IMG/VR virus record: IMGVR_UViG_3300036818_000105
Coordinates: 1-64,000 of that record
Strand: one strand, 5' to 3'
Length of the DNA: 64,000 nt
DNA from: a virus
This document shows positions 16,533-29,642 of this stretch, piece by piece. The translations under genes were made by a program, and so were the position numbers. The notes below the pieces were generated by a model. The model did no database searches. It saw nothing but the letters and a program-made list of their open reading frames with translations, and was not told the origin of the DNA. Position 1 is the stretch's first letter. The number at the start of each line of letters is the position of its first letter.

Positions 16533-17341
16533 GATGCCTCCAAATGCTCGCGCGCGTAGCTACCTGTAGTGGTGCTCTCTGCGTCACCGGTTCGGAAGTG
16601 TTGAGCATCATCAGCCACCGGTTCGTTAAATCGTGAACTCGTGGTTTTCGAGTTTGCGATTTGCGGCAAGCGGAGCGCGCCAGGCTTTTGATCTTGGGGA
16701 CCGGTTTTGACGTTGGGGGACGCTGAGGGGACGGGGTCGCCAGATTCGGCGACCTTTGATACCAAAAGTGGCGACCTTTGAGGCTCAGTGCTCGCCACTT
16801 CCGGCAAGCTATACGGATCTCCGTCCGTCTCTGTCGTGACGTGATAGCTCGCCACTTCCGGCGACCTTTCCTCGTCCTCGTAGTCCCCGGCCAGATCGTC
16901 AAAGGTAGCCACTTCCGGCGACCTTTGAGGCTTGGGGCGCGGCGGCAGGTGCGGGACCGTGAACCGCAGGGCGTGCCCCTTGGCGGCGTACACCAGGCGG
17001 CCGCGCTTGTCCCTGACCGGATACCCGTCCCGGCCGGTGATCGGCAACCGCATGTCGTAGCCCTCTTCGGCGAGGTCGGCCAGCGTCCGGGAGATCGCGC
17101 GGGCGCTCATGTTGCACCGCTCGACCAGGCCGTCCGTCCAGTCGCCGCGCCGGAACTCGCCTTCGATCGGCAGCGCCGCCCACGGGCTCGGCTTCGGCCA
17201 GTCCTCGGCTGGTGGAAGGGGGTCCTTCTCACGCCCGGGATCGCGGGCCTCGTCGGCGATCTCTTCCGCGACAAAGCGCATTAGCGGGGACCACTCGGAG
17301 GGCGCGCCGTCGCGGATCATGCGCCGCAGCTTGTAACCCAC
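16529..17341 (-). CDS. putative replication initiator (winged-HTH)
   Basis: EIADEARD..LVERCNMSARAISRTLADL; internal iteron-like repeats. Confidence 0.65.
   Translation of the reverse strand: MGYKLRRMIRDGAPSEWSPLMRFVAEEIADEARDPGREKDPLPPAEDWPKPSPWAALPIEGEFRRGDWTDGLVERCNMSARAISRTLADLAEEGYDMRLPITGRDGYPVRDKRGRLVYAAKGHALRFTVPHLPPRPKPQRSPEVATFDDLAGDYEDEERSPEVASYHVTTETDGDPYSLPEVASTEPQRSPLLVSKVAESGDPVPSASPNVKTGPQDQKPGALRLPQIANSKTTSSRFNEPVADDAQHFRTGDAESTTTGSYAREHLEAS
16739..16930. repeat. five ~20-bp iteron-like repeats, consensus GCCACTTCCGGCGACCTTTG
   Basis: Copies at 16739, 16761, 16794, 16851, 16908. Confidence 0.8.
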
Positions 17342-17519: not shown

Positions 17520-17930
17520 TCAGCGTGCGGCGAGTGCGGCGTTCAGATGCTCTTGCACCGGCTCGAAGAAACCGAACGGCACGTACTCGCCGAGCTCGCC
17601 GATCGGCACCCACTCCACCGCGTCGTGCTCCTCGGGGTCCCCGATGCGCGCAGTCCCGGCGATCACGTCGCACGCCACGTAGGCCATGTGCCGTTTCGTG
17701 GCCGGGTGCACACGCTCGCCGAGAAACCGGCGCGCTTCCACGGTCAGCCCGGTCTCCTCCAGCGCTTCCCTCACTGCGGCCTGCTCGGCGCTCTCGCCCG
17801 CCTCGACGGCGCCGCCAGGCAGCGCCCACAGGACGGTCCCTTCCTGCTCGCGCCGCCGGGCCAGCAGCAGCCGCCCGTCCTGCACGATGACCGCCGACGC
17901 GACGGGGGGCTTGCCGTTGCCGTCAGACAT
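17520..17930 (-). CDS. NUDIX hydrolase
   Basis: Nudix box GGAVEAGESAEQAAVREALEETG. Confidence 0.95.
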   Translation of the reverse strand: MSDGNGKPPVASAVIVQDGRLLLARRREQEGTVLWALPGGAVEAGESAEQAAVREALEETGLTVEARRFLGERVHPATKRHMAYVACDVIAGTARIGDPEEHDAVEWVPIGELGEYVPFGFFEPVQEHLNAALAAR

Positions 17931-18594
17931 GCTGTTCCTCCAGTGCTTCCAGGACCGGCGGGAAAACTGATCCCCGCGGTATCCAGCCGGTTATCTCCGC
18001 CGCGGGCACCCACAGGACACCCTCGTTCTCCGCCTCGTCGCGGTTGACCGCCTCGCCTGCCTCGTAGGCGCAGGCGAAGTAGTGGCAGTGCACTCCCGTC
18101 ACGGGATGTACCCGGCTTCCGAGGTGCCGCGTCACTGCGCAGGCAACGCCGGTCTCGTTCAGGGTCTCCCGCACGGCGGTCGCCGCGGCGTCGTCGCCGG
18201 GCTTCACGGTCCCGGCGGGGAAGCCGGTCCTGATGCCGGACCCGTCATCGCGCCTGCGCACCAGGAGCACGTCCGGCCCGCGCGTCACGACGGCCATGGC
18301 GACGCGGAAGAACTGCGGCGCGGTCGGCCCCTCGGGACTGGCCAGCTCGGCGAACCGGGCGCGCTCATGGGATGCGGCCGCGGCGTAGGCGTCGTCGAGC
18401 TTCCGCTGGACCGCGGCGCGCGGCACAGTGCCGGGCTTCTCCGCCCAGCCTGCCACGGTCCTGACGGAGACCGCCAGCTTCACGGCGAACGCCTCCGTTG
18501 TCAGGCGCAGGGCAGTGCGCAGCGCGGTGGCGTCCCGTCCGGTCCACGCGCGCCCCGCCACCGTTAACCGCCCCAAATTGCATCGGAACCGCAT
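17923..18594 (-). CDS. XRE HTH-NUDIX fusion (start uncertain)
   Basis: WTGRDATALRTALRLTTEAFAVKLAVSVRTVAGW plus GTVKPGDDAAATAVRETLNETG. Confidence 0.85.
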   Translation of the reverse strand: MRFRCNLGRLTVAGRAWTGRDATALRTALRLTTEAFAVKLAVSVRTVAGWAEKPGTVPRAAVQRKLDDAYAAAASHERARFAELASPEGPTAPQFFRVAMAVVTRGPDVLLVRRRDDGSGIRTGFPAGTVKPGDDAAATAVRETLNETGVACAVTRHLGSRVHPVTGVHCHYFACAYEAGEAVNRDEAENEGVLWVPAAEITGWIPRGSVFPPVLEALEEQHV

Positions 18595-18714
18595 GGCGCC
18601 CGCCCGGCTCCGGAGGTTGACTGGACGCCGTGAGCCCTCAGGAGATGCAGCGGATCAGTGAGGCACTCGCGGGTGCACTCAGGCGCCTGGACGAACTGGA
18701 GCGCCATCTCGGCG

Positions 18715-19068
18715 TCAGCCACTCTCCCGCTCCTTCCCGAACGCATGCCGCTCCAGAGCGCCCAGCCGGTCGAGCACCTCTGCTAGCTGCTCGGTAAGCC
18801 TCTGGTACTCGGGTGTCGCGTCAGCGTCTCCTGGCATCTTCAGCACGAACGTTCCCCTCGTGCTGCCCCTGCTGACCACGCCCTCGTCGGCGAGTATGTC
18901 CAGCGCGTCCCGCAGTGTCCCGACCGCGACCCCGTACTGCTCGGCGAGCTCACGCTGTGACGGCAGCCGGGTCCCGACCTTGATCCGGCCGTCTTTCACC
19001 TGCCTACGCAGGTCTTCGGCTATCTGCTCGTAGGCGGCGCGGGGGTCGTTCACGTCGGGAACCGGCAC
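18715..19068 (-). CDS. GntR-family regulator (KorSA-like)
   Basis: YEQIAEDLRRQV..G.RLPSQRELAEQYGVAVGTLRDALDILADEG..GTFV. Confidence 0.93.
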   Translation of the reverse strand: MPVPDVNDPRAAYEQIAEDLRRQVKDGRIKVGTRLPSQRELAEQYGVAVGTLRDALDILADEGVVSRGSTRGTFVLKMPGDADATPEYQRLTEQLAEVLDRLGALERHAFGKERESG

Positions 19069-19133
19069 GTGTACAGGGTAGGTGCACGGCCTGGTCTAGG
19101 CCAGCCTGCCTCACCTGCATTTTCCGGATGAGC

Positions 19134-19163
19134 TTGACTGATTCAGATGTGTCAGTTTAAGCT
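19134..19163 (+). promoter_or_regulatory. promoter for the rightward Xis-WhiB-tra operon
   Basis: TTGACT, 18 nt, TAAGCT; CTAG/TAGAC elements and near-palindrome CTGGTCTAGGCCAG nearby. Confidence 0.55.
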
Positions 19164-19201
19164 AGATCAAGGTAGACATCACTAGACTAGGGAGAGCGCC
19201 G

Positions 19202-19483
19202 TTGAGCGACAAGACCACTGCGGAAGCGCCGGGCCGGCAGGCCGGGCTCTCTGTCGCGGAGGCCGCGGCCGCGATCGGGCTGTCCAAGATCACCGTGCTC
19301 CGCCGCATGCGGAGCGGCGCGTGGCCGGGCGGCAGGTGCGGTGCGAAATGGCTCGTATCCCAGCCGTTCGTTGACGCGCTCGTCATCGCGCTGACCACCA
19401 GCGCGCAGGTAAACGTCGAGGTCTTCGCCGCCGAGTGGATGACACGCAGCGAAAGCGGCGCGCCAGCCGGGGCGGTGGCCTAG
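19202..19483 (+). CDS. excisionase-like HTH protein
   Basis: LSVAEAAAAIGLSKITVLRRMRSGAWPG.RCG.KWLV. Confidence 0.8.
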   Translation: MSDKTTAEAPGRQAGLSVAEAAAAIGLSKITVLRRMRSGAWPGGRCGAKWLVSQPFVDALVIALTTSAQVNVEVFAAEWMTRSESGAPAGAVA

Positions 19484-19869
19484 GTGAAAGTTCCCCGGTC
19501 GCGTGCGACACCCCCGGCCCCGCTATGCCGAGGGCGTCCGCAACGCAACTCTTCCCGAGTGGCTGAGCGACGAGATCACCCGCCGTGCCGAGGCTGACGC
19601 GGCCGAGACCGACCGGCTAGCCCGCAGGGCCGCTTACGACAAGTGGGCCAAGGACTACGCCGCCTACATGATCGAGGGCCGGCCCGATGCGTGAGCAGGC
19701 TCTTGAGCAGACCGAGGTGTGCCAGGACTGCGGGAGGCCCTACCTGGTCGCCAGCGGTCATACCTGCCGTCCCCGGACCTGACCCCGAAACGAAACGGGC
19801 CGCCACCGGTATCTGACACCGGAGCGGCCCTCGCACCCCAGCCGACTCAACCGGAACAGGAGCGCTTGA

Positions 19870-20211
19870 GTGAGCACTCTAACCCACCGCCCTCCCCAGG
19901 GCACCCGGCCCGCTAGCGACAGGGAGGCGGAAGCCATGGCGTTCGCCTCCGCCGGCAACACCCCGGAGAGCCTCCGCGCCCACGCCGGCGACTCCCTGGT
20001 GACCGGGGCCCTCGCTGAGCACTGCCAGCTGACGCCGGACCAGGCGCGCGGCTGGCTGCTCGGCATCGCGGAGGCTGTCGAGTCCCTGCCCGCCGCCTGG
20101 GTGACCCCGGGCTACTGCCAGGGCTGCCACCAGAACCACCCCGGCCCGTGCGGCTGCTGGTGCCACCAGCCCGCCGCAGCGGTGCCCGTGCAGGAGGCGC
20201 GCCATGGCTGA
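19870..20211 (+). CDS. hypothetical protein with Cys/His-rich C-terminus
   Basis: CQGCHQNH..CGCWCH. Confidence 0.55.
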   Translation: MSTLTHRPPQGTRPASDREAEAMAFASAGNTPESLRAHAGDSLVTGALAEHCQLTPDQARGWLLGIAEAVESLPAAWVTPGYCQGCHQNHPGPCGCWCHQPAAAVPVQEARHG

Positions 20212-20301
20212 CGCCCCCCGCTCCGTGATCGAGCTTGACACCCGGTTCCCCACTCTCGTGCTCCCCGACGAGCCCGAGGCGGATGAAGACGGGGAGGCGG
20301 C

Positions 20302-20643
20302 GTGAACTCCGCAGCAACCCTCAGCGACGCGCCCGGTACCACGGCGCCCGTCATCCGCGACGTCTGGCTGGCCGCCCTGAAGCTCTACGGCACCGGCCGC
20401 ACCGCCGAAGCCCAGCGTGACATGGCCGATGACCCGGCATGGGTGGCGGGCCTCGCCTACATCGACGGCGTCCCCCCGGACGAGGAGCGGGCGCAGGACC
20501 TCGCGGTCGCGGGCGCCATCGGCCAGCTTGAGGCCGCCGGCCTCACCCCCGAGCAGGCGTACTTCCTCGCCAGCCTGGACAGGGACCTCGGCCCGTACGA
20601 GGACAACGCCGATTTCTCCCGCGTGCCCGAGGTGACCTCGTGA
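20302..20643 (+). CDS. hypothetical protein
   Basis: Coupled ORF. Confidence 0.65.
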   Translation: MNSAATLSDAPGTTAPVIRDVWLAALKLYGTGRTAEAQRDMADDPAWVAGLAYIDGVPPDEERAQDLAVAGAIGQLEAAGLTPEQAYFLASLDRDLGPYEDNADFSRVPEVTS

Positions 20644-20849
20644 GCGCCCGCCAGAGGATCCAGGTACCGCCCGAGAACGGTCCCTTCGCCTCCCTCGGCG
20701 CCGAGCTGGGCATGCTCGACGCCTGCCTTGACAGCGTCGACGCCCTGGCCGAGGCCGACACCGGACCGAAGCACGCCCGTAAGGACGTCCTCGCAGCCGG
20801 GCAGGCCGCCGTCAACGTCGTCAACGGCCGCAGGGGGCGGACCTCGTGA
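20640..20849 (+). CDS. hypothetical protein
   Basis: GTGA-coupled at both ends. Confidence 0.6.
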   Translation: MSARQRIQVPPENGPFASLGAELGMLDACLDSVDALAEADTGPKHARKDVLAAGQAAVNVVNGRRGRTS

Positions 20850-21058
20850 AGTACTTCACCGGGCTGCTCGCCGCCTGCGCTGGCACCTCCGCCGTCATCG
20901 TCGGCCTCGCCGTCGGGACCCCCTCGAACGTGCCCGCGGCCCCTGTCCCGTCCGTCTTCTGCCCGGCAGGCCAGCACGTGACCGGTATCGCCGCCGGGTC
21001 CCCGGAGTGCGCGGGCCCGGCGCGGGTGCCGCAGGTCGCAAAGGGGATGCTGCCGTGA
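20846..21058 (+). CDS. small secreted or membrane protein
   Basis: Signal-like N-terminus; coupled. Confidence 0.55.
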   Translation: MKYFTGLLAACAGTSAVIVGLAVGTPSNVPAAPVPSVFCPAGQHVTGIAAGSPECAGPARVPQVAKGMLP

Positions 21059-21324
21059 TCCCCGTGAAGATCCCCGAGATCCCGCTCCCCGAGCCCGCGT
21101 TCATGATCACGGTCAAGCGCGGGAGCGACAGGAACCGCCGGGCAGCGGTGAGCGCCCTCCGGTTCCTGCTGTGGGTGGTCCCGTCCGGTGCCGTCGACTA
21201 CGTCCTGGCGACCGCGGACGGGGGCCGTCACTCGCCCTGGCTGACCCTGGCCGCCACCTTCGCCCTCCTCGTGACCGCCGTGCTCGTCGTGAACGTGCGC
21301 GACGGCGGGAAGGACAAGTCATGA
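21055..21324 (+). CDS. two-TM membrane protein
   Basis: MIPVKIPE start; two hydrophobic helices. Confidence 0.6.
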   Translation: MIPVKIPEIPLPEPAFMITVKRGSDRNRRAAVSALRFLLWVVPSGAVDYVLATADGGRHSPWLTLAATFALLVTAVLVVNVRDGGKDKS

Positions 21325-21578
21325 CCGCCGCCCTCGCCGCCCGCGGCTGGCGCGCCCAGGCGGCCTGCCAGGGCGCCGACCCTGACCTGTTCTTCCCCGT
21401 CGCCCCGCCGAACACCGGTGCCGGGCAGCGGCAGGTAGCGCAGGCGCGCGAGGTGTGCCGGTCCTGCGCGGTCACCGCCGACTGCCTCCGCTTCGCCCTG
21501 GCCACCCGCCAGGCGCACGGCGTCTGGGCGGGGACGACCGAAGGGCAGCGGGCCGCGGCGCGAAGGACCCTGTCATGA
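21321..21578 (+). CDS. whiB: WhiB-family regulator
   Basis: W..QAAC..DPDLFFP..VCRSC.V..DC..GVWAGTTE.QR. Confidence 0.92.
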   Translation: MTAALAARGWRAQAACQGADPDLFFPVAPPNTGAGQRQVAQAREVCRSCAVTADCLRFALATRQAHGVWAGTTEGQRAAARRTLS

Positions 21579-22003
21579 CCGTCCGCGCCGCCGAGGTCCT
21601 GGCCTGGCACCCGGAGATCCCCGGATGGGACCTGGGTGCCCCGCCGTCCTGGCAGGACGCCGCCCTCTGCGCGCAGACAGACCCAGAGGCCTTCTTCCCG
21701 GAGAAGGGCGGCTCGGTCCGGTCGCCAAAGAGGGTCTGCGCGTCCTGCCCGGTCACGGCCGAGTGCCTTGAGTTCGCGCTTGAGAACCGCATGCCGTTCG
21801 GTATCTGGGGCGGCACGACCGAGCGGCAGCGCCGCGTGATCCTCGCCGCTCGCGAGCGCGAGGCCGGCGCCGTCCGCTGCGATTCGCGCCGGCATGTCCT
21901 CGCCGGGGGCAACGTGCTCCCGGACGGGAAGTGCGCGGCCTGCAGTGCCGCGGCCGCCAGGAGCGCCGAGGGGCGCCGCATTGCGAAGGGGCTGGCGGCG
22001 TAA
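21575..22003 (+). CDS. whiB: WhiB2-like regulator with C-terminal Zn motif
   Basis: WQDAALCAQTDPEAFFPEKGGS..CASC.V..EC..GIWGGTTERQRR; tail C..RH..CAAC. Confidence 0.93.
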   Translation: MTVRAAEVLAWHPEIPGWDLGAPPSWQDAALCAQTDPEAFFPEKGGSVRSPKRVCASCPVTAECLEFALENRMPFGIWGGTTERQRRVILAAREREAGAVRCDSRRHVLAGGNVLPDGKCAACSAAAARSAEGRRIAKGLAA

Positions 22004-22398
22004 TGGCAGACGAGCACGAGCTGGCGATCCTGGCGCAGCGCGGGGAACTCATCCGGGAGGCGCTCAGCAGGCCCCCGGGCCCGGTGCGCCCTGAGCCCGG
22101 CTACTACGTGTCGTACTTCTCGCGGGCCGAGGCCCTTGAGGAGCTACGCGAGATCGAGGACGAGGCCGCGCAGATCCGCCGGCGGCAGCGCCGCCGGGCA
22201 CCCGCGGCCCCCGGGCGCCGCAGCACCGGGGCGAGGCAGGCTGCCGCGCCCGTCCAGAACCGGAGGAATCCCTTGCAGTTCATCAGGCACGTCTTCGGCG
22301 CGGCGGTCATCGTCTCGGTAGTCCGGGGCGTATCGAAAAGCGACAAGAAGCCCGAGCCGCAGCCTGTCCCCTTCCGGCAGTACGGGGGGCGGCGGTGA
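22003..22398 (+). CDS. hypothetical protein (paralog of 22846-23385)
   Basis: TAATG-coupled start; C-terminal hydrophobic segment. Confidence 0.6.
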   Translation: MADEHELAILAQRGELIREALSRPPGPVRPEPGYYVSYFSRAEALEELREIEDEAAQIRRRQRRRAPAAPGRRSTGARQAAAPVQNRRNPLQFIRHVFGAAVIVSVVRGVSKSDKKPEPQPVPFRQYGGRR

Positions 22399-22679
22399 TC
22401 ACCCTCGGCGGGAAGTACCGGCGGCTCGACAAGCTGACCCGGATGATGACCAGGGCGAACGACACCTACCGCGCCGCCGACCCGAAGGACCGCGCCAAGC
22501 GGGCCCGGATCGGCCGCATGCAGCAGAAGCTCAGGGCTGCCCGCGCGGCGGAGGTCAGTCGGCTGCACGGCACCGGGACCCCGCTCGAGGTCGTCGGCGC
22601 GCACCTGGACGCCACCGACCCCTACCGCCGCGGCGTCCCCGGTAACCGCCCCGTCCGGCAGGGACGGGGGTCCCGGTGA
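22395..22679 (+). CDS. basic hypothetical protein
   Basis: Coupled ORF. Confidence 0.6.
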   Translation: MITLGGKYRRLDKLTRMMTRANDTYRAADPKDRAKRARIGRMQQKLRAARAAEVSRLHGTGTPLEVVGAHLDATDPYRRGVPGNRPVRQGRGSR

Positions 22680-22845
22680 GCCGCCCCCGGTACCGGGGGC
22701 GGCTCGTGGCGTGGCGCAAGCGCAACCCGCCCACCGGGCGAGGCAGGGGAAACTCGGCCGTCCCGCGCGGGCGCGACGGCCGCGGCCGGTTCGCCAGCAT
22801 GCCGGGTGCCCGCCGCCCGTTCCGTCCCGTCAGGGAGCTGCCCGC

Positions 22846-23385
22846 ATGAGCCGCGAGCGCTGGCTGGCGGCCCTGGCGAAGCGCGAGGAAGGGCTCCGGC
22901 TGGCCCTTGAGTACCCCAGCGGCGTGATGCGCCCCGGCGGGTACGCCGCGCACTACAACCGCGACGGGTGCCTGAGGGAGCTAGGCGAGATCGCCCGCGA
23001 GCGCGCGAGGCTGCAGGCGCCTCGCCAGGTGCCCGCAACGGCCCCCGCGCGCCGAATCGGCAGGCCCGGCCGCCCGGCCGCGCCCGTTCACAACCGGAGG
23101 AAAACCTTGAAGCTCAGCGCAATCATCGTGGTCGCCGACATGGCGGTCGTCACCTATGTCGAGAAGGGCATGACCGCGGGGCACCCGGCCAGCGCCGGCC
23201 ATCACGCCGTGCCGCCCGCGACCCTCACCGAGCACATCGTCGCCGGCCTGGTATTCGGCTCGCCGATCCTCCTGGTCCTCCTCGTGGCGTGGCTGCTCGC
23301 GGCCCGCGAGGCGAAGGCGAGGGCCGCAGCCTCCGCCCCGCGTTCCGGCTACCGCCTCGGCCAGCAGTCCGGGGGCCGGCTGTGA
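22846..23385 (+). CDS. membrane protein
   Basis: MSRERWL start; two hydrophobic segments. Confidence 0.6.
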   Translation: MSRERWLAALAKREEGLRLALEYPSGVMRPGGYAAHYNRDGCLRELGEIARERARLQAPRQVPATAPARRIGRPGRPAAPVHNRRKTLKLSAIIVVADMAVVTYVEKGMTAGHPASAGHHAVPPATLTEHIVAGLVFGSPILLVLLVAWLLAAREAKARAAASAPRSGYRLGQQSGGRL

Positions 23386-23597
23386 ACACGCTGGCACGCT
23401 GGCGCTTCAACGCGACGCTCCGCCGCCTCGGCCACTCGCCGCGGTGGGTCACCGCCCGCGGGTCCTGGTCGGCCGGGTGCCGCAACTGCTCGTGGTCCTG
23501 GTCCGGGCGCGGCACCCGCCCCGTGAACCTCGCCGCGGCAGTCCGGGCAACGGACACGTGCCAGCGCGGCCGTCGTCGCAGCGGACGGGGGCGCTGA
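23382..23597 (+). CDS. hypothetical protein with GH..W..CxxC
   Basis: Coupled; weakly similar to 23923-24240. Confidence 0.5.
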   Translation: MNTLARWRFNATLRRLGHSPRWVTARGSWSAGCRNCSWSWSGRGTRPVNLAAAVRATDTCQRGRRRSGRGR

Positions 23598-23602
23598 CCC
23601 CG

Positions 23603-23926
23603 ATGACCACCCGGGCCGCCCTTGCCGCCGGCACTGCCGTGTCGCTTGCCGTTACCGCCGTGTGGTCGTGGACGGCCACGCTGTCGATCGGCGCGCCCGC
23701 GGCCCCGCGCCTGACCCGGAACCTGCCGGGCGACTACGCGCAGCTCGCCGCGGCGGCCACCGGGAGCAGCCCGTGGGCGCTGTTCGCCGTCGTGGCCGCG
23801 ATCTACGTCCTGTGCTTCCTCGCCTCCGGGCTGCTCGCCCGGCGGAGGGCACTGCGGGAAGCGGCCGGTGACCTTGACCCGGATCAAGACACTAGGCCCG
23901 CAACGGCCTACGGGAAGGCGGCATGA
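23603..23926 (+). CDS. two-TM membrane protein
   Basis: Two hydrophobic helices. Confidence 0.55.
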   Translation: MTTRAALAAGTAVSLAVTAVWSWTATLSIGAPAAPRLTRNLPGDYAQLAAAATGSSPWALFAVVAAIYVLCFLASGLLARRRALREAAGDLDPDQDTRPATAYGKAA

Positions 23927-24240
23927 TGGCCGGCCGGTTCACGGTGCGCAGCCAGTCAGGGATCTCGGTCTACTCGCGCACGTACAAGGACACCCCCGCG
24001 GGCCGCCTAGAAGCCGCCCGGGACAAGGCTGCCGACAGTCTCCGCACCGCCGGGCACGACATGATGCACTGGCGGAAGGAAGCGCGGACTACGCCGCCTT
24101 ACTTCAGCGCGCACTGCGGGGCTTGCGGCGCCGGGGTGAAGGTCGTTGCCGGCCGGGCTCCCGCGAACCTGCCCGGCTACCCGAGCCTTCTCCGGCTCCG
24201 CAAGGTCCAGTGGTGCCCGGGCAAGGTGCGCCGCCGATGA
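23923..24240 (+). CDS. hypothetical protein with GH..W..CxxC
   Basis: Coupled at both ends. Confidence 0.6.
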   Translation: MMAGRFTVRSQSGISVYSRTYKDTPAGRLEAARDKAADSLRTAGHDMMHWRKEARTTPPYFSAHCGACGAGVKVVAGRAPANLPGYPSLLRLRKVQWCPGKVRRR

Positions 24241-25250
24241 CCGCCTACCGGTACAGCCGTTACCGGGCCCCGCGCCGCTACCGCCGGGTCCGTTACCCGT
24301 ACCGCTTCCGGTCCCGCAAGCAGCAGAACGCCGGGGCCTTCCCCGTCGTTGCGATCGTCGGCGCGGTCCTGCTTGCCGGGGCGGGGGCGGGGGCGAAGGC
24401 GGTCGTCCACCACGCGCCGAAGCCCGCGGCGAAGGCACCCGCCGTCACTGACCCCGCGGCGGCAGGCGTGATCGCCTTCGCCCGCTCCAAGGTCGGCAAG
24501 GTCCCCTACGCGTGGGGCGGGACGACGGACGCGGGCATGGACTGCTCGGGCCTGGCGCAGTCCGCCTACGCCGCGGCAGGGGTCCCGGTCGAGCGGACCT
24601 CGCAGGAGCAGTGGGCGTCCGAGCGGCGCGTGCCCGGCTCCGAGGTGACCGCCGGGGACCTGGTGTTCTTCGCCGGGTCGGACGGCACCGCCACCGCGCC
24701 GGGGCACGTCGGGATCGTCGTCAACCCGGCCGCCCACACCATGATCGACGCGTACGAGACGGGGACGTACGTCCGCTACGACACCTACGGGCTTGCCTCG
24801 TCAGCGCCGGGCCTGGGCACTGTCGTCGGCTTCACCGACCCCGACCCCAAAGCCCCCGCCTCCCCGGTTACGGCAGCGGCACCCGGCCCCGGGGAGACGG
24901 GTTACGTTTCCGCGCTCCTGGCCGCCGTCGGCGCGCCGGACGACAGCGCGAACGAGGACTCGGTGGCGGACTGGGCGCGCCTTGAGGGCCCCTGGGGGAC
25001 GGTCGGGCGCTGGAATCCCCTGAGCACCACCCTCGCCGAGCCGGGGTCGTGGAACTTCAACACCTTCGACGGGGACCTGCACGTGCAGTCGTACCCGACT
25101 GAGGCCGAGGGAGTGCGGGCGACCGCCGCGACGCTCCTGTCCGGCTACCCGCAGATCGTGTCCGCGCTCCGCTCCGGCGCGGGCGTGTGCGGGACGTCCC
25201 TCGCGGGCGAGTTCGGCGAGTGGAGCGGTAACTACGAGGAGGTCTGCTAG
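24237..25250 (+). CDS. membrane-anchored NlpC/P60 peptidase with lysozyme-like C-terminal domain
   Basis: PYAWGG..MDCSGL..GDLVFF..HVGIV; C-terminal E..WNPLSTT..VQSY..EG..ATAATL..Y. Confidence 0.88.
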   Translation: MTAYRYSRYRAPRRYRRVRYPYRFRSRKQQNAGAFPVVAIVGAVLLAGAGAGAKAVVHHAPKPAAKAPAVTDPAAAGVIAFARSKVGKVPYAWGGTTDAGMDCSGLAQSAYAAAGVPVERTSQEQWASERRVPGSEVTAGDLVFFAGSDGTATAPGHVGIVVNPAAHTMIDAYETGTYVRYDTYGLASSAPGLGTVVGFTDPDPKAPASPVTAAAPGPGETGYVSALLAAVGAPDDSANEDSVADWARLEGPWGTVGRWNPLSTTLAEPGSWNFNTFDGDLHVQSYPTEAEGVRATAATLLSGYPQIVSALRSGAGVCGTSLAGEFGEWSGNYEEVC

Positions 25251-26189
25251 ATGGGCACCGGGACGATCATCGACATTGCCCTGTACGCGGGGTGCGGCGC
25301 CTGCGCCCTTGAGGCCGTGGCCGCTTACGCGCGCCTGGCACGGGCGAGAGACGGGCACAAGGACGCCGGCAGCTGGCACGCCCCGCTGATCTTCACCTCC
25401 GCCGCCTTCGCCCTGCTCGGCATCCTCGGCGTCCTGTCCCCGGCGTCCGCCGCGGTCCTCGCGGCCCTGCCGCTGGCCGCGGTCGCCGCGATCGTCTGGC
25501 GCGCCTGGCGGGCGGCGGCAAGGGCGCTGGGGTGGGCGAAGGCGACGGCCATCGTCCTGGGCGGCCTTGCCGGCCGCGTGCGCGAGGCCCTGGGGCACAC
25601 CCGCGAGGACCTTCGCGACCTCCGCGGCAAGCTGAGCCGGGAGGGCGCCCCCGCTGATCCCGCAGCCCCCGGGGACGGCGGCCGCCGTTCAGCCGGCGGG
25701 GCGCCGAGGCTGGGGGCCGTCACCCGCGCCCGGCACGTCCCCCCGCTGATGGATGACCCGTACCTCGGCGCGCACCCCTACCCCGCCGACGTCGCCGCCA
25801 GCCTTGAGCTGGACCGGGTTCCCGTGCCCCCGCACTGGGACCGGACCGCGCAGGTCATCAGCGACTTCGATCCCGAAGACGACGACGACACGCAAGGGCA
25901 CGTCGCCGGGGAAGCCGCCGGGGTCCTCACCGTCGCCGCGGCGGTCGAGAACCGGGCAGAGCACCTCGCGCTCGCGGTCGGCCTGGACCCGGCGATCATC
26001 GAGGCCCACTATGACATCGCGGAGGGGTTCGCCGAGCTGGCCACCCGCTACGCGCTCCTCGTCCGCCGCGACCACCTCGTCATGGGGGACCTGCGCGAGT
26101 ACCGCGACCAGGGCGGGGTCATCCCGCACGACGGCCGCCGGTACATGGACGCCGGCGACCCCCGCCCCGACGGGGGCCAGGCGGCATGA
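25251..26189 (+). CDS. membrane protein, putative transfer accessory
   Basis: N-terminal TM helices; directly upstream of and coupled to traB. Confidence 0.6.
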   Translation: MGTGTIIDIALYAGCGACALEAVAAYARLARARDGHKDAGSWHAPLIFTSAAFALLGILGVLSPASAAVLAALPLAAVAAIVWRAWRAAARALGWAKATAIVLGGLAGRVREALGHTREDLRDLRGKLSREGAPADPAAPGDGGRRSAGGAPRLGAVTRARHVPPLMDDPYLGAHPYPADVAASLELDRVPVPPHWDRTAQVISDFDPEDDDDTQGHVAGEAAGVLTVAAAVENRAEHLALAVGLDPAIIEAHYDIAEGFAELATRYALLVRRDHLVMGDLREYRDQGGVIPHDGRRYMDAGDPRPDGGQAA

Positions 26190-28258
26190 TCCCCGGCAGC
26201 GAGGAGGACGCCGGCTTCGCGCGGCTGGCCCGCACCCCCGCGGAGACGGCCGCCGCGGCGGTACGGCCGGCCTGCTCCCTGGTGTGGACGGCGGCGGAAG
26301 TCATGCACTGGGCCGGCGTACAGGGCTCCGCCGACCTGGGGATCGCAACCGTCGTCGCGTCCTCGCTCGCCTGGGGGGCCGCGTCCCGCGGGTGGGTCCC
26401 GCCCGCGCTGCCCGCCTGGGTGGCGCTGGCCGGCGGGTGGACCGCCGCCGCCTGGTACCTCGGCCCCCTCGCCTGGCTGCCCGCCCCCATGCTGACCGCG
26501 GCGTGGATCGTCATCACCTGGGCCGCGCACCGGGCCGCGCGCCGTCACCCGGCCGTTGCCGGCGCCCGTCAGTGGCGGGAGGCGCGCGGCCGCTGGCTCG
26601 CCGTCCGCGGCAACTGGGGCCTGGGCGGCAGCCACCTGCTCGATTACCAGGAAACCCGCGTCGGCGAGCTGTACACCGTGTCGGCGCGGAAAGCGTCCCG
26701 CTACATTGGCAACCGCTCGGCCGAGGAGGACATCGCCGAGGCGGAGAACCTGCCGCTCGGCCGCGTCCAGATCCTGCCGCACGAGCTCGCCGGCCGGATC
26801 ATCATCTCGATCCGGCGCAAGGACCCGTGGGCGGAGCCGATCCTGCACCCGCTGACCGGCGAGAACCCGGATGCGGAACTGGCCGAGCGGCGCAGCATTA
26901 CCGACCTGGTGCCAGTCGGCCAGCACCCGGAAGCCGGCGGCCTGCTCACCATCCAGCTGTACGACGCCGAGGCCGGCGGGAAGAACATCGACATCACCGG
27001 CATCAAGGGCGCGGGGAAAGACGTGCTACTCGCCAGTGTCGCCGAGCACGTGACCGCGTGCGACGACGCGGTCATGGTGTGGATCGACGTCTCCATCAAG
27101 GGGACTGCCCAGCTGGGCGCCTGGGGCCCGGCGTGCCACCTGACCGCGCTCGGGGCGGACGCGAAGGCCCGCGCCGTCGCCGTCGTGGGGGTCCTCAACA
27201 AGGTCATCGAGTGGCGGGCCCGCACCTACAAGCCGGGCACCTACGCGCCGTCGGCGGATGACCCCGCAATCGTCCTGGTCGTCAACGAGTCGGACGCGGC
27301 CGCCGCGGTCCCCGGCCTCAAGCGGGAACTGGACGACTTCGCGACCAAGGCGCGCGAGTTCGGCGGTGTCTACATCCACGCGGGGCAGCGGAACACCAAC
27401 GACTACCACAGCGCGAAGCAGCGGTCCCAGGACGACGTGCACTGCACCGGGATGCTGGCCAACGCTAACGAGGCCCGGCACGCCGGCGGCTTCCCCCCGG
27501 CGCTGCGGGTCGGCGTGTGGTCAATCAGCATGCTCGGCGGCAGCACGGCCACCGGCCGCACGTGGGTGTTCGCCGCGACTAAGGCCGCCCACGGCGCGGC
27601 GGTCGAGCGGGTCGCCGCGGAGCGCGCGTTCAGTCAGCCGGGACTCCCCGCCGAGTGCCGGGAGTACCTCGGCGAGAGGTACGCGGCGCTGCTGGCGTCG
27701 GAGGTGTTCCCCCGGTGGGCGCAGGGACGCGACCCCGGCGGCTACGCGCCCGGCGGAGACGACGCGCAGGACGGCCCGCCCGCGGCACGGCCCGACGACG
27801 CGGCCGCGGCCCTCCCGGCCGTAACCGCGGCCACGGTAACCGCGGTCGCCGATCATGACCTCGAGGAGATGTGGAAGGCCCCCATGGACGAGAGCACCGC
27901 GGCGCGGAACGCGGCGATCCACCGGAAGCTCACGGACGCCAGCCGGAGCCTGGCCGTAGCCGCGGCGATTCCCCGGCCTGAGCCGGTCGCCCCGGAAACG
28001 CGGGCCGCGTTCACTGCGGAGCGGTGGCGGCAGGTTGCCGACGAGCCTCCCCGCCAGGTGCTCGGCCCGCTGCTGGGGATGCTCGAGGAGGGCACGACGA
28101 TCAGCGCGGTCGCCGGCCAGTTCACGGGCGGCAAGAAGTGGCAGGCCCGCAAGTGGCTGGAGTACCTCCGGCTCGCGGGCGCGGCCTACGTCGACGGCGA
28201 GCGGTCGGCGGCCCGCTGGCGGCTGGCCCCTCCCCTGGGCGAAGGTGACGCGCAGTGA
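26186..28258 (+). CDS. traB: TraB-like FtsK/SpoIIIE DNA translocase
   Basis: N-terminal TMs, Walker A GIKGAGKD, Walker B-like IVLVVNE, AGQR, C-terminal winged helix ending RWRL. Confidence 0.8.
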   Translation: MIPGSEEDAGFARLARTPAETAAAAVRPACSLVWTAAEVMHWAGVQGSADLGIATVVASSLAWGAASRGWVPPALPAWVALAGGWTAAAWYLGPLAWLPAPMLTAAWIVITWAAHRAARRHPAVAGARQWREARGRWLAVRGNWGLGGSHLLDYQETRVGELYTVSARKASRYIGNRSAEEDIAEAENLPLGRVQILPHELAGRIIISIRRKDPWAEPILHPLTGENPDAELAERRSITDLVPVGQHPEAGGLLTIQLYDAEAGGKNIDITGIKGAGKDVLLASVAEHVTACDDAVMVWIDVSIKGTAQLGAWGPACHLTALGADAKARAVAVVGVLNKVIEWRARTYKPGTYAPSADDPAIVLVVNESDAAAAVPGLKRELDDFATKAREFGGVYIHAGQRNTNDYHSAKQRSQDDVHCTGMLANANEARHAGGFPPALRVGVWSISMLGGSTATGRTWVFAATKAAHGAAVERVAAERAFSQPGLPAECREYLGERYAALLASEVFPRWAQGRDPGGYAPGGDDAQDGPPAARPDDAAAALPAVTAATVTAVADHDLEEMWKAPMDESTAARNAAIHRKLTDASRSLAVAAAIPRPEPVAPETRAAFTAERWRQVADEPPRQVLGPLLGMLEEGTTISAVAGQFTGGKKWQARKWLEYLRLAGAAYVDGERSAARWRLAPPLGEGDAQ

Positions 28259-28326
28259 GCGGCCTTGAGCCTCAGTGCCCGCCTCGCGCGTGCCCGCGCG
28301 CCCGCTCGCGGATGCGGGCGACGAAA

Positions 28327-28390
28327 CTTGAGCGCACTCAAGCCTGAACCCTTGAGTGCGCTCAAGTTCCGGCCCTTGAGTGCACTCAAG
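28327..28390. repeat. three 16-bp palindromes CTTGAGYGCRCTCAAG at 24-bp period
   Basis: Copies at 28327, 28351, 28375; half site at 28264. Confidence 0.9.
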
Positions 28391-28625
28391 GAACAGTTAC
28401 TCACAGTGACGGACAGGCGTGCCAGAAAAGGGCCCGCCTGCGAAAACACCGGAAGGAATCACCGCCGATGCGCTGGAACGGAAACGGGCCCCGGCCAGCG
28501 CGACGCGCTCGAGCGCGAGTTCGCCGGCGCCTAGTCCCCCTTGGACGCGGGTACCCGGTGTATTCCGACCCCCGGCGCCGGGTACCCGCCCCAATCCCCT
28601 GAAAAGATCTTCAAGGACGGTAACG

Positions 28626-29642
28626 ATGGACGACGTGCCCAAGCATGACATCCACGAGGCGGCAGGCCGCCCGCTGCGCCGCGCCCGCTTCGCCGCATGG
28701 GCGGTGTTCCTGGGCATGGCCGGGACCACGATGGCGTTCCAGACTTACCACTCGCTGCACTACGGGCAGATGCCGTGGCCGCTCGCCTACCTGTACGGGA
28801 TCGTCCCGCTCGGCATCTCGATCGGCGTGCTCATGTTCGCCGCCGTCTGGCCGTCGCGGTGGGCTCAGGGCGGCGCTTACGCGATCACGGCCGGGGCGAT
28901 GTACATGTCCGCGTCGGCAACCGGCGCCGTCACGCTGCACGCCGCCGCGCCGCACGCCGAGCTGCTGTTCGGCTTCCTCCTCGACGGCGCCGCGCTCCTC
29001 GCCGTCCGCTTCATCTTCGACGGCCCGACAGCCGGCCAGGCGGTAGCGGAAGTCGCCCGGCGCGAGGCGGAACTTACGGGTGCCGCTACCGCCGCGCGGG
29101 AAGACCTCGGCCGGGCGGTAACGGAGCACCGGAAGGCCGCCGCCGAGACGGAAGCCGGGCACGCGGCCGAGAAGGAACGACTCGAGCGGAAGCTGGCCGC
29201 CGCAGGGGAAGCGACGGAAACGTGGCAGGCAGAGGCTGCGAGGGTCCACCAGATGACCGTGAGCGTCCTGGAGGAGCGGGAGCGCGTCGCCCTCGCCGAG
29301 GCGGAAGCGGCGAGCGCAAGGGCGGAACGACTCGAGCGGAAGCTGGCCGCCGCTACCGGGTCCGGCAAGGGCGGTAGCGGAACCCGGAAGCCCGCCGCCG
29401 CTACCGCCCCGGAGCGCCCGGAAGCGACGGCCGTAAACCCGGATGACCTTCCGGGCGACTGGGGCGACTGGGACACTGAGGCGCGGGTCCTGTTCCTCGT
29501 GAACGAGAAGGGGTTCTCGGCGTCCAAGGCCGGCGTCGAGGCCGGCGTGACCGATGCCCGCGGGCGGCAGATCGCCCGGATGGCGAAGGACCTCGGTGCG
29601 ACCGCCCCGCAGGACGTTGTCGGCGAGGTGCCGGAATCCTGA
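28626..29642 (+). CDS. SpdB2/DUF2637-like spread protein
   Basis: Four TMs, coiled coil with duplicated ERLERKLAAA, C-terminal HTH-like segment; follows traB. Confidence 0.65.
   Translation: MDDVPKHDIHEAAGRPLRRARFAAWAVFLGMAGTTMAFQTYHSLHYGQMPWPLAYLYGIVPLGISIGVLMFAAVWPSRWAQGGAYAITAGAMYMSASATGAVTLHAAAPHAELLFGFLLDGAALLAVRFIFDGPTAGQAVAEVARREAELTGAATAAREDLGRAVTEHRKAAAETEAGHAAEKERLERKLAAAGEATETWQAEAARVHQMTVSVLEERERVALAEAEAASARAERLERKLAAATGSGKGGSGTRKPAAATAPERPEATAVNPDDLPGDWGDWDTEARVLFLVNEKGFSASKAGVEAGVTDARGRQIARMAKDLGATAPQDVVGEVPES

What the first reader, a model, noticed from the sequence alone, without database searches (positions are those of the whole stretch)
17520..29642. A tailed phage carrying an actinomycete ICE-type (TraB) conjugation module
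Seen: NUDIX x2, GntR, Xis-like, many small membrane proteins, a two-domain wall hydrolase, an FtsK-like TraB with C-terminal winged helix and a 4-TM coiled-coil SpdB2-like gene sit between phage replication and lysis genes. No integrase or RCR rep marks them as an independent insertion, and the operon includes phage-type whiB genes. Known: pSAM2-type elements use KorSA (GntR), Pif (NUDIX), TraSA and Spd proteins for mycelial dsDNA transfer. Inference: a phage-ICE hybrid able to spread both by virion and by hyphal conjugation.
Basis: partly seen in the sequence, partly recalled or inferred. Interest (0 to 1): 0.8.

Follow-up and report, generated by a model that had tools for sequence, protein, structure and literature searches.

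The report
Large actinomycete phage with TraB-like DNA pump
A complete 124-kb tailed phage of soil actinomycetes carries, as an inherited part of its genome, a membrane DNA pump of the kind Streptomyces plasmids use for mating, with its probable docking repeats, so its DNA may also pass between hyphal cells without virus particles.

Summary
Window 17520-29642 encodes two NUDIX proteins, a short GntR regulator, a weak excisionase-like HTH, two WhiB proteins, several one-TM proteins, a membrane-anchored NlpC/P60 hydrolase, a conserved membrane protein (g53), a 690-aa ATPase (g54) and a 4-TM/coiled-coil/HTH protein (g55).

g54 hits no Pfam, NCBIfam or PHROG family. Its model (pLDDT 83.6) matches the FtsK motor (Z 24.5) and the TcpA coupling protein (Z 24.1). 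It has N-terminal membrane helices and a C-terminal winged helix. Its family profile aligns to Streptomyces plasmid FtsK/SpoIIIE-domain proteins (hhalign 98%).

Right after its stop lie three 16-bp palindromes, which make six 8-bp words. Twenty of 25 related loci have an 8-mer cluster at that place, as at the clt sites of Streptomyces plasmids.

The contig is a complete circularly assembled phage with TerL, portal, head protein, tape measure and a tyrosine integrase. A collinear sibling phage carries the module at the same position, and no att-like repeats bound it, so it is not a nested element.

Transfer itself is untested. The published precedent is the plasmid-phage pZL12. This scan has already noted TraB-type modules on other phage genomes. 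I class it as a new variant of a known kind.

The parts
17520..17930 (-). NUDIX hydrolase (136 aa), Pif-like by position only
   Evidence: Pfam NUDIX E 2.8e-24. Homologues lie next to the module in only 2 of 37 related loci and are absent from sibling phage G001.
17923..18576 (-). Second NUDIX protein (217 aa) with an N-terminal extension
   Evidence: Pfam NUDIX E 7.3e-17 at residues 91-196.
18715..19068 (-). Short GntR-family HTH regulator (117 aa), candidate repressor of the divergent operon
   Evidence: Pfam GntR E 4.7e-20. Homologues are present in 5 of 37 related loci.
19069..19201 (.). Divergent AT-richer intergenic region with TCTAG/CTAGAC-type half-sites, candidate operator and promoter region
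   Evidence: Sequence read and inverted repeat I2. The motif count is not above chance. The role is inferred only.
19202..19483 (+). Small HTH protein, weakly excisionase/MerR-like
   Evidence: HTH_17 E 0.005, TIGR01764 E 0.0012, phrog_1840 E 1.6e-4. All are below curated cut-offs.
21321..22003 (+). Two WhiB-like genes (85 and 142 aa)
   Evidence: phrog_472 E 3e-26 for the second. WhiB homologues lie upstream of the pump in 15 of 37 loci.
20846..23926 (+). Run of small proteins with one predicted TM helix (g42, g43, g46, g49, g50). g46 and g49 are paralogues.
   Evidence: Hydropathy scan. g46 and g49 both match the same stretch of the sibling. No family hits.
24210..25250 (+). Membrane-anchored NlpC/P60 peptidoglycan endopeptidase with a conserved, unassigned C-terminal domain
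   Evidence: Pfam NLPC_P60 E 4.3e-19. Model Z 20.0 to NlpC/P60 structures. The C-terminal domain reaches only Z 5.3. Present in 13 of 37 loci.
25251..26189 (+). g53, a conserved membrane protein always paired with the pump (candidate accessory transfer protein)
   Evidence: 2-3 TM helices. No family. A homologue lies directly upstream of the pump in 26 of 29 loci with at least 600 bp upstream.
26186..28258 (+). g54, TraB-like DNA translocase: N-terminal membrane helices, FtsK-type motor (Walker A at G277-K278, Walker B at D367-E368), disordered linker, C-terminal winged helix
   Evidence: AF2 pLDDT 83.6. Foldseek: TcpA and FtsK at E about 1e-11. VIA: FtsK Z 24.5, 330 residues aligned. Invariant motifs. 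hhalign 98.1-98.4% to Streptomyces plasmid proteins. HTH_28 in 21 of 37 and HTH_29 in 17 of 37 family members.
28327..28390 (.). clt-like site: three 16-bp palindromes CTTGAGYGCRCTCAAG at 24-bp spacing, giving six 8-bp words
   Evidence: 3 matches against 0.08 expected. It is one of only two places in the 124-kb genome with at least 4 copies of an 8-mer in 150 bp. The same kind of cluster sits at the same place in 20 of 25 loci.
28626..29642 (+). g55, 4-TM + coiled-coil + C-terminal HTH-like membrane protein (candidate spread or pore protein)
   Evidence: Translation and hydropathy. 79 homologues, of which 3 carry DUF2637 over the shared TM part. Atlas leads to DUF2637 and SpdB_N clusters score below 0.9.

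Best explanation
The region is an inherited, self-regulated DNA-transfer module of a temperate tailed phage. It is not a foreign element nested in the phage.

Its core is the gene pair g53-g54, a short repeat site and g55. g54 is a membrane-anchored hexameric-type FtsK-fold ATPase. Its C-terminal winged helix most likely docks on the 8-bp words placed just after its own gene, which would make a clt-like site. The pump would then move the double-stranded phage genome, excised or replicating, across a septum or between touching hyphae.

The likely helpers are:
- the NlpC/P60 hydrolase, to open peptidoglycan;
- g53 and the one-TM proteins, as membrane partners;
- g55, as a spread or pore protein.

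The divergent GntR gene would keep the operon off, and the NUDIX proteins may act like the Pif immunity factor.

Shown here: the gene content, the fold, the conserved ATPase motifs, the homology to plasmid FtsK/SpoIIIE-domain proteins, the repeat site and its conservation, the synteny, and the phage nature of the replicon.

Inferred: DNA binding by the winged helix, pumping, the roles of the partner proteins, regulation, and that the cargo is the phage genome.
For: 1. The replicon is a complete phage. There is a 127-bp end overlap. IMG/VR classes it as having direct terminal repeats and 100% completeness. It has TerL with an intein, a Mu-type portal, a head protein, a tape measure and a tyrosine integrase.

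2. g54 has the FtsK motor fold.
- Foldseek gives TcpA 9.7e-12 and FtsK 2.7e-11.
- VIA gives FtsK Z 24.5 (rmsd 3.7, 330 residues aligned, model residues 130-503), TcpA Z 24.1 and EssC Z 24.0, against HerA at Z 17.9 or less.
- G277, K278, E368 and D370 are invariant and D367 nearly invariant in 37 sequences.

3. g54 has TraB-like architecture. The model shows helices at 26-140, the motor, a disordered linker at 517-557, and three helices plus a hairpin at 623-680 with pLDDT of about 87-95. HTH_29 'winged helix-turn-helix' is hit in 17 of 37 family members.

4. g54 is homologous to plasmid transfer-type proteins.
- hhalign of the family against a PGAP-annotated 'FtsK/SpoIIIE domain-containing protein' of a Streptomyces linear plasmid gives prob 98.1, E 1.3e-13.
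- hhalign against a 716-aa protein of an 89.7-kb circular S. anulatus plasmid gives prob 98.4, E 5.5e-15. That plasmid also carries GntR, NUDIX, kilB and a terminase gene nearby.
- 18 of 24 weak tblastn hits are on Streptomyces plasmids.

5. There is a clt-like site. See the parts list for the window. In 20 of 25 loci with at least 200 bp downstream, an 8-mer occurs 3-6 times within 150 bp after the stop. In 13 of these no other window of the locus reaches that count. The words fall into classes (CTCAAG/A, ACGTGCG, TTGGCCGG) that track the residues of the winged helix's wing. Thoma et al. 2015 state that clt regions hold 8-bp repeats read by the cognate TraB (passages of PMC4447253). The pWTY27 paper places clt at and just after the tra gene (passages of PMC3583192).

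6. The module is inherited, not inserted. Sibling G001 (head protein 96% identical) is collinear, shares 93 of 212 proteins, and has the module at the same place between shared flanks. No att-like repeats are present. g53 is adjacent to the pump in 26 of 29 loci.

7. The family sits in phages. TerL or a capsid gene lies on the same record for G001, G002, G004, G005 and G006, which is 5 of 6.

8. GntR and NUDIX genes are typical of AICE regulation and immunity (passages of PMC2440964).
Against: - No sequence library names g54. PF01580 is absent from it, from 37 family members and from the genome. Among 10 distant relatives there is one sub-threshold hit, E 0.0012.
- EssC/EccC secretion ATPases score as high as FtsK by fold (Z 23-24).
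- The repeat classes do not follow the recognition helix strictly. Loci with the same helix (VSKWTARTYLERLR) carry either ACGTGCG or CTCAAA words. The link between wing residues and word class may be shared ancestry only.
- Several of the 25 loci are near-duplicates (L006/L022, L010/L011, L009/L032, L037/L038, L027/L039), so independent support is smaller than 20 of 25. Five loci lack a cluster.
- In the window the words form palindromes, which would also suit a dimeric repressor or the HTH of g55.
- g55 and g53 have no demonstrated link to Spd or TraA proteins. Nothing but GntR, NUDIX and the pump is shared with the two plasmid loci.
- The sibling lacks the NUDIX pair.
- The host is unknown, and it is not shown to be mycelial. 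Close head-protein relatives lie in MAG bins named Actinospica, Mycobacterium, Streptosporangiaceae and Kineosporiaceae, and such binning of phage contigs is unreliable.
- No relative of the pump was found in 185,579 species genomes by the pattern scan, nor in cultured phages.
Confidence: 0.55

Rival explanations
1. Segregation pump. The FtsK-fold protein and its repeat site clear or partition replicating or excised phage DNA across closing cross-walls or sporulation septa of the same mycelium, like FtsK/SpoIIIE with KOPS/SRS. This would secure inheritance of the prophage or phage DNA, not transfer to other cells.
For: The best structural match is the FtsK motor itself (Z 24.5). Short oriented words read by a C-terminal winged helix is also how FtsK works (established knowledge, recalled). 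No ParB_N partition gene is found in the genome, so another inheritance device would be useful. Two WhiB developmental-type regulators sit in the operon.
Against: The words are clustered at one site next to the gene. FtsK-type guidance needs words spread and polarised over the replicon. A wall hydrolase and several membrane proteins are co-conserved, which fits envelope crossing better. The nearest sequence relatives are plasmid proteins.
Confidence: 0.15
2. Exclusion or defence device. This reading sees a membrane ATPase with a DNA-binding end that blocks or expels incoming DNA of related phages or plasmids, with NUDIX and GntR as part of an immunity unit.
For: HerA-type ATPases of anti-phage systems share the fold at Z 16-18. 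Pif of pSAM2 is an immunity factor (passages of PMC2440964). The left arm of the phage holds other exclusion-type genes such as Ltp.
Against: The defence HerA proteins score clearly lower than FtsK and TcpA. A self-encoded cluster of recognition words next to the gene argues for action on the phage's own DNA. I did not run a PADLOC scan, so this reading has not been tested against the defence library.
Confidence: 0.1
3. Nested AICE or plasmid remnant. The module is a recently captured integrative conjugative element lying inside the phage.
For: The GntR-NUDIX-transfer gene content resembles AICEs. GC is slightly higher over 20-28 kb (0.74-0.75) than in the right half of the window.
Against: There is no integrase, replication gene or att-like repeat in or around the module. 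A collinear sibling phage has the module at the same position between shared flanks. The pump family is found on phage records and not in 185,579 species genomes. The left arm at 1-16 kb has a similar GC of 0.70-0.74.
Confidence: 0.05
4. Protein-secretion ATPase. This reading makes g54 an EssC/EccC-like coupling ATPase that exports phage proteins through the membrane partners.
For: EssC and EccC ATPase domains match at Z 23-24.
Against: There is a single ATPase domain, not the three of EssC/EccC. The protein has a C-terminal winged helix, and a DNA word cluster sits at the gene's end. No WXG-type or other T7SS parts were seen among the scanned proteins.
Confidence: 0.05

Closest known systems
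TraB/Tra-clt transfer loci of Streptomyces plasmids (pSVH1, pWTY27, pJV1, pIJ101)
   Same: A single membrane-anchored FtsK-type pump of about 690 aa (pWTY27 TraA is 688 aa with N-terminal TM helices; passages of PMC3583192). A C-terminal winged helix. A cluster of short repeats at or just after the gene's 3' end. A divergent GntR regulator. Neighbouring poorly conserved membrane proteins (passages of PMC4447253).
   Different: The pump does not reach Pfam PF01580 and is only 26-27% identical to the plasmid proteins over the motor. The GntR is 117 aa with no effector domain. An NlpC/P60 hydrolase and WhiB genes lie in the operon. The carrier is a 124-kb virion-forming phage.
Streptomyces plasmid-phage pZL12 / phiZL12 (Zhong et al. 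2010), with pFP4 and pSLE1
   Same: A replicon that has virion genes and a tra function. [quoted passage not shown] An 89.7-kb S. anulatus plasmid with GntR, NUDIX, a pump homologue, kilB and a terminase looks like this type.
   Different: The pZL12 paper itself is not held, so I did not read it. The pZL12/pSLE1 type has ParAB, whereas this genome shows no ParB_N and has a tyrosine integrase. There is no DNA or protein match to PLSDB or INPHARED at default thresholds.
AICEs of the pSAM2 type (KorSA, Pif, TraSA, Spd)
   Same: A GntR regulator, NUDIX genes, an FtsK-type pump and small membrane proteins. The replicon as a whole has an integrase (passages of PMC2440964).
   Different: The module has no RepSA/RepAM-type replication gene and no attP-int-xis block. 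The integrase lies about 70 kb away among phage genes. The NUDIX pair is not conserved with the module (2 of 37 loci).
FtsK/SpoIIIE and the TcpA coupling protein of pCW3
   Same: These are the best structural matches over both motor subdomains. FtsK also reads 8-bp words with a C-terminal winged helix (recalled).
   Different: Identity is 13-15%. The words are clustered at one site and not spread over the replicon.

Membership tests
Streptomyces TraB/Tra dsDNA translocase | FtsK/SpoIIIE ATPase domain recognised by sequence (Pfam PF01580) | tested here: not met
   0 hits for g54, for 37 family members at E up to 1 and for the genome in six frames. There is one sub-threshold hit, E 0.0012, among 10 distant relatives.
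Streptomyces TraB/Tra dsDNA translocase | FtsK-type motor fold with Walker A and B motifs, homologous to plasmid Tra proteins | tested here: met
   FtsK Z 24.5 and TcpA Z 24.1. Foldseek E about 1e-11. G277, K278, E368 and D370 are invariant and D367 nearly invariant. hhalign prob 98.1 and 98.4 to Streptomyces plasmid proteins, one of them annotated as FtsK/SpoIIIE domain-containing.
Streptomyces TraB/Tra dsDNA translocase | N-terminal membrane association | tested here: met
   The model shows helices at 26-140 and a hydrophobic segment at 92-110. This is prediction only.
Streptomyces TraB/Tra dsDNA translocase | [quoted passage not shown] | tested here: met
   Three helices plus a beta hairpin at 623-680, with pLDDT of about 87-95. 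HTH_28 in 21 of 37 and HTH_29 in 17 of 37 family members.
Streptomyces TraB/Tra dsDNA translocase | Cognate clt with repeated short (about 8-bp) words near the gene | tested here: met
   Three palindromes, giving six 8-bp words, lie 69 bp after the stop. 20 of 25 loci have such a cluster.
Streptomyces TraB/Tra dsDNA translocase | Specific binding of the winged helix to the repeats, hexameric pore, ATP-driven transfer of dsDNA | not testable with these tools
   This needs EMSA or footprinting, microscopy and mating assays.
Streptomyces TraB/Tra dsDNA translocase | GntR-type kil-kor repressor (TraR/KorA type) | tested here: inconclusive
   A GntR HTH gene is divergent from the operon, but it is 117 aa and lacks an effector domain. 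The operator is guessed only.
SpdB2-type spread protein | Sequence relation to SpdB2 / SpdB_N, or the pore-forming, peptidoglycan-binding and DNA-binding properties | tested here: inconclusive
   g55 hits 0 Pfam families even at E up to 1. 3 of 79 homologues carry DUF2637. Atlas rows with SpdB_N on 18-29% of members score 0.77-0.79, which makes them leads only.
AICE (pSAM2 type) | int-xis-attP and a replication gene within the element | tested here: not met
   None among the scanned module proteins. There are no bounding repeats. The only integrase found lies at 98558-99892 of the contig.
Plasmid-phage of the pZL12 type | Virion genes together with a tra gene on one replicon | tested here: met
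   TerL, portal, head protein and tape measure, together with the TraB-like pump.
Plasmid-phage of the pZL12 type | Plasmid maintenance by ParAB | tested here: not met
   No ParB_N match in the genome. ParA was not searched for.

The most novel reading that the evidence does not exclude
A whole lineage of large temperate actinophages uses its own divergent TraB-like pump, docking site, wall hydrolase and membrane partners as a 'movement' system. After infection or induction in one hyphal compartment, naked phage genomes are pumped through cross-walls and into touching hyphae. The virus would then spread cell to cell without particles, much as plant viruses do. The system is old enough in phages to have become a family of its own, separate from the plasmid Tra proteins.
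Probability: 0.3. Interest if true: 0.8.

Novelty: new variant of a known kind. Interest (0 to 1): 0.6.

Why it matters
If the module works as its anatomy suggests, some tailed phages of filamentous actinomycetes have a second route of spread that needs no virions. That would affect three things:
- how prophages move through soil populations;
- how plaques and lysogeny behave in mycelia;
- how the line between phage, plasmid and AICE is drawn.

The pump family is large: 834 cluster representatives at E up to 0.001. It is unnamed in Pfam, NCBIfam and PHROGs, so present annotation pipelines cannot see it. It also offers a natural series of pump and DNA-word pairs for studying how FtsK-type winged helices read DNA.

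The idea itself has a laboratory precedent in pZL12, and this scan has flagged comparable modules on other phages. This is therefore an extension of a known idea, not a first.

Tried and rejected
Searches that gave nothing:
- Megablast of the region, and tblastn of g54, against INPHARED phages and PLSDB plasmids at default thresholds: no match. Only a relaxed tblastn at E up to 5 gave weak plasmid hits.
- Pfam, NCBIfam and PHROGs on g53, g54 and g55: no family.
- phmmer of g54 against PDB sequences: noise only. The family profile gave FtsK at E 0.01.
- Pattern scan of 185,579 species genomes for the pump: none.
- tRNA scan of the window: none.
- Sigma-70 promoter and terminator scan of the module: not above shuffles.
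- The GntR operator guess GGTCTAGNC: 2 matches against 1.63 expected.
- att-like direct repeats at the edges: none convincing.
- tblastn of the module proteins against two plasmid tra loci: only GntR, NUDIX and the pump matched.
- The atlas gave leads under 0.9 only.
- The C-terminal domain of the hydrolase: best Z 5.3, unassigned.
- The listing of cluster members gave no names.

Literature searches:
- Searches on 'phage-plasmid' + Streptomyces + TraB, on actinobacteriophage/FtsK/AICE terms and on DUF2637 found no paper describing a TraB-type module on an integrating tailed phage in the held library.
- The pZL12 and pFP4 papers are not held, so that gap is not proof of absence.
- No supplements were requested.

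An error of mine:
- In one search the row for the window was computed from a wrong stop, because I had included the stop codon in the coordinates. It gave 2 copies.

Not done:
- PADLOC was not scanned.
- ParA was not searched for.
- Host assignment failed. Only MAG bin names of head-protein relatives are available.

Full report
What the replicon is

The window is the first 64 kb of a single 124,491-bp contig. Its first 127 bases repeat at its end. IMG/VR classes it as a virus record with direct terminal repeats and 100% estimated completeness. GC is 67-75%, and no tRNA lies in the window.

Phage hallmark genes are present:
- a large terminase interrupted by a LAGLIDADG domain, 48050-50818;
- a Mu-type portal, 54104-55492;
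- a major head protein at contig 71252-72163, phrog_1650 E 1.7e-67;
- a 1553-aa tape measure, contig 79479-84140;
- a tyrosine integrase, contig 98558-99892.

Upstream of the finding lie a Gp3-like protein, an exonuclease, DUF5131, an Ltp lipoprotein, a Clp_N protein and a GIY-YIG protein. Downstream lie a protein with a PG_binding_1 end next to a small TM protein, which are probable lysis genes. So the setting 'inside a tailed temperate phage' is right.

What is in 17520-29642

I called genes by third-position GC.

On the minus strand:
- two NUDIX genes (E 2.8e-24 and 7.3e-17);
- a 117-aa GntR HTH protein (E 4.7e-20).

Divergently, on the plus strand:
- a small HTH protein with only sub-threshold excisionase-type hits;
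- several small ORFs;
- two WhiB-like genes;
- five proteins with one predicted TM helix, two of them paralogues;
- a membrane-anchored NlpC/P60 endopeptidase, Pfam E 4.3e-19 and fold Z 20.0. Its conserved C-terminal domain stays unassigned, with a best match of Z 5.3;
- g53, 312 aa with 2-3 TM helices and no family;
- g54, 690 aa;
- a 367-bp spacer;
- g55, 338 aa from the ATG at 28626, with about four TM helices, a coiled coil holding a perfect 30-nt internal repeat, and an HTH-like end.

The pump, g54

No sequence library names g54. Pfam, NCBIfam, PHROGs and phmmer against PDB all gave nothing.

It has 66 relatives in the word-indexed search. All come from metagenome sources, and several lie on 80-137-kb contigs. 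A profile of 37 of them finds 834 cluster representatives at E up to 0.001.

G277, K278, E368 and D370 are invariant and D367 nearly invariant, giving Walker A and B motifs.

The AlphaFold model built on that alignment has mean pLDDT 83.6. It shows N-terminal helices (26-140), a beta-rich subdomain, a RecA-type core, a disordered linker (517-557), and three helices plus a hairpin at the C-terminus.

Foldseek puts the pCW3 coupling protein TcpA (9.7e-12) and the FtsK motor (2.7e-11) first. The second look gives:
- FtsK Z 24.5 (rmsd 3.7, 330 residues aligned, model residues 130-503);
- TcpA Z 24.1;
- EssC Z 24.0 and EccC Z 23.4;
- HerA and VirB4 clearly lower, at Z 17.9 or less.

The family profile touches FtsK sequences only weakly (E 0.01). 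PF01580 is not reached by any of 37 members, nor by the genome in six frames. Among 10 distant relatives it appears only once, sub-threshold.

Homology to plasmid transfer-type proteins is nevertheless detectable.
- A relaxed tblastn gives 24 weak hits, 18 of them on Streptomyces plasmids. Five of these 18 (and one more hit, on a Gordonia plasmid) lie under genes annotated as FtsK/SpoIIIE-domain protein or DNA translocase FtsK.
- hhalign of the family against one such protein gives probability 98.1 (E 1.3e-13).
- hhalign against a 716-aa protein of an 89.7-kb circular S. anulatus plasmid gives 98.4 (E 5.5e-15).
- That plasmid carries GntR, NUDIX, kilB and a terminase gene near the pump. It looks like a cultured analogue of a plasmid-phage.

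The C-terminal HTH is supported by HTH_28 in 21 of 37 members and HTH_29 in 17 of 37.

The repeat site

Sixty-nine bases after the stop of g54 lie three copies of the 16-bp palindrome CTTGAGYGCRCTCAAG at 24-bp spacing, 28327-28390. That is 3 matches against 0.08 expected, and they are the only ones in the window.

Counting non-overlapping 8-mers in 150-bp windows, only two places in the whole 124-kb genome reach four copies. One is this site. The other is an iteron-like cluster near 120.7 kb.

I then looked at the same place in related loci: 8 from IMG/VR and 29 from metagenomes. Of 25 loci with a stop and at least 200 bp downstream, 20 have an 8-mer present 3-6 times within 150 bp after the stop. 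In 13 of these, no other window of the locus reaches that count (with the window's row corrected).

Five loci show no cluster. Several loci are near-duplicates, so the independent number is lower.

The words differ between lineages: CACTCAAG / CGCTCAAG / CGCTCAAA, AACGTGCG / AATGCGTG, and TTGGCCGG. Their orientation is mixed, so the conserved unit is the 8-bp word and not the palindrome.

The word class tracks the residues of the wing after the recognition helix: GE(R/K) or GTR with CTCAA words, and G(K/S/Q)G with ACGTGC words. It does not track the recognition helix itself in every case. The correlation is not corrected for shared ancestry.

This layout is what is described for clt sites.
- Thoma et al. 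2015 write that clt regions contain direct 8-bp repeats recognised by the cognate TraB (passages of PMC4447253).
- The pWTY27 study maps clt to the last 16 bp of the tra gene plus the adjoining 159 bp, with 7-bp repeats bound by the 688-aa, N-terminally membrane-anchored Tra protein (passages of PMC3583192).

Inherited or inserted?

1. Relatives. A sibling phage record has 124,995 bp with direct terminal repeats. Its head protein is 96% identical and its portal 65%.
- It is collinear with this genome and shares 93 of 212 predicted proteins.
- It has GntR, WhiB, the TM proteins, NlpC/P60, g53, the pump (51% identical) and g55 at the same position, between shared flanking genes.
- It lacks the NUDIX pair and a homologue of this integrase.

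2. Synteny across 37 loci.
- g53 lies directly upstream of the pump in 26 of 29 loci with enough upstream sequence.
- WhiB is present in 15 loci, NlpC/P60 in 13, g55 in 9, GntR in 5 and NUDIX in 2.

3. Edges. No att-like direct repeats bound the region, and no integrase or replication family was found in it.

Phage hallmark genes lie on the same record for 5 of 6 IMG/VR relatives that I tested. TerL is in two fragments. An HK97-type capsid is in two others, which have a different head gene from this phage. G001 is the fifth.

The module is therefore an old, mobile part of phage genomes in this group, not a nested AICE.

The partners

g55 has 79 relatives. Three of them carry DUF2637 over the shared TM region. 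The atlas lists DUF2637 and SpdB_N-bearing clusters, but only at scores of 0.76-0.80, which are leads and no more.

SpdB2 of pSVH1 is a 409-aa oligomeric, pore-forming, peptidoglycan-binding membrane protein with a coiled coil (passages of PMC4447253). g55 is similar in kind. The order of its parts differs, and no homology is shown.

g53 and the one-TM proteins have no family.

GntR regulators and NUDIX (Pif) proteins are usual in AICEs (passages of PMC2440964). Here the GntR is truncated, and the NUDIX genes are not conserved with the module.

Reading

Best reading, 0.55: a TraB-type double-stranded-DNA transfer and spread module that acts on the phage's own genome through the adjacent word cluster.

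The anatomy, the fold, the homology, the site and the inheritance are shown. DNA binding, pumping, cargo and regulation are inferred.

Rivals:
- an FtsK-like segregation device (0.15);
- an exclusion or defence device (0.10);
- a nested element (0.05);
- a secretion ATPase (0.05).

Against the main reading stand the following:
- there is no PF01580 membership;
- secretion ATPases match equally well by fold;
- the site in this window is palindromic, which also suits a dimeric repressor;
- the host is unknown;
- the pump family is absent from species genomes and from cultured phages.

Comparison and novelty

The kind is known. pZL12/phiZL12 is a Streptomyces plasmid that also makes phage particles, and its transfer is cited as needing a tra gene and two neighbours. 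pSLE1 and PhiNon1 are described as similar elements (passages of PMC4487206 and PMC5431353). I could not read the pZL12 or pFP4 papers.

This scan has already noted TraB-type modules on other phage genomes. Those notes gave me the pZL12 lead.

New here:
- a divergent, unnamed pump family that lives on large integrase-bearing phages;
- a co-conserved partner, g53, and a wall hydrolase;
- a series of lineage-specific 8-bp word sites.

I class it as a new variant of a known kind, with interest 0.6.

Noticed in passing
contig 120,690-120,810 (outside the window; L004:10690-10810): Four to five copies of a roughly 13-bp word (CCCGGACCCTTCA, one inverted) next to an AT-rich patch. Besides the clt-like site, this is the only place in the genome with at least 4 copies of an 8-mer in 150 bp. 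It is a candidate origin or partition iteron array.
   Followed up: partly
window 16735-16928: Three to four copies of a roughly 25-30-nt repeat (GCCACTTCCGGCGACCTTT core) at 57-bp spacing, in the 1.1-kb gene-poor gap between the GIY-YIG gene and the NUDIX genes. It is a candidate regulatory or iteron array at the left edge of the module.
   Followed up: no
homologues P0026, P0071, P0112, P0116 of the pump (not in the window): Long forms of the pump (1074-1281 aa) carry an insertion of roughly 400 aa with a LAGLIDADG_3 domain, seen in 4 of 4 tested. It splits the match at profile position about 279-283, at or next to the Walker A loop. It is probably an intein homed into the ATPase motif, which speaks for a conserved, active ATPase. 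L023 seems to hold such a form, but its frame has stops as I cut it.
   Followed up: partly
window 48050-50818: The large terminase is interrupted by a LAGLIDADG/Hom_end domain at residues 313-377, probably an intein.
   Followed up: no
window 52468-53658: A TnpB-type gene (OrfB_IS605 + Cas12f1-like TNB) lies between terminase and portal. Earlier notes of the scan treat it.
   Followed up: no
contig 66407-67960 (outside the window): A TROVE (Ro60-like) domain protein lies in the head-gene region. Earlier notes of the scan treat it.
   Followed up: no
L005:12255-12480 (sibling phage): In the sibling, a small gene not seen in the window sits between the repeat cluster and the g55 homologue. Its product (MPLPPMTPEQRAASLEKAK...) looks to me like an actinobacterial IHF-type DNA-bending protein. 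That name is recalled and was not tested.
   Followed up: no
window 28390-28420 and the same place in L005, L006: A conserved word, TTACTCACAGTGA (CTACTCACAGTGA in L005), follows the repeat cluster just before the next gene in three loci. It may be a promoter or operator element.
   Followed up: no
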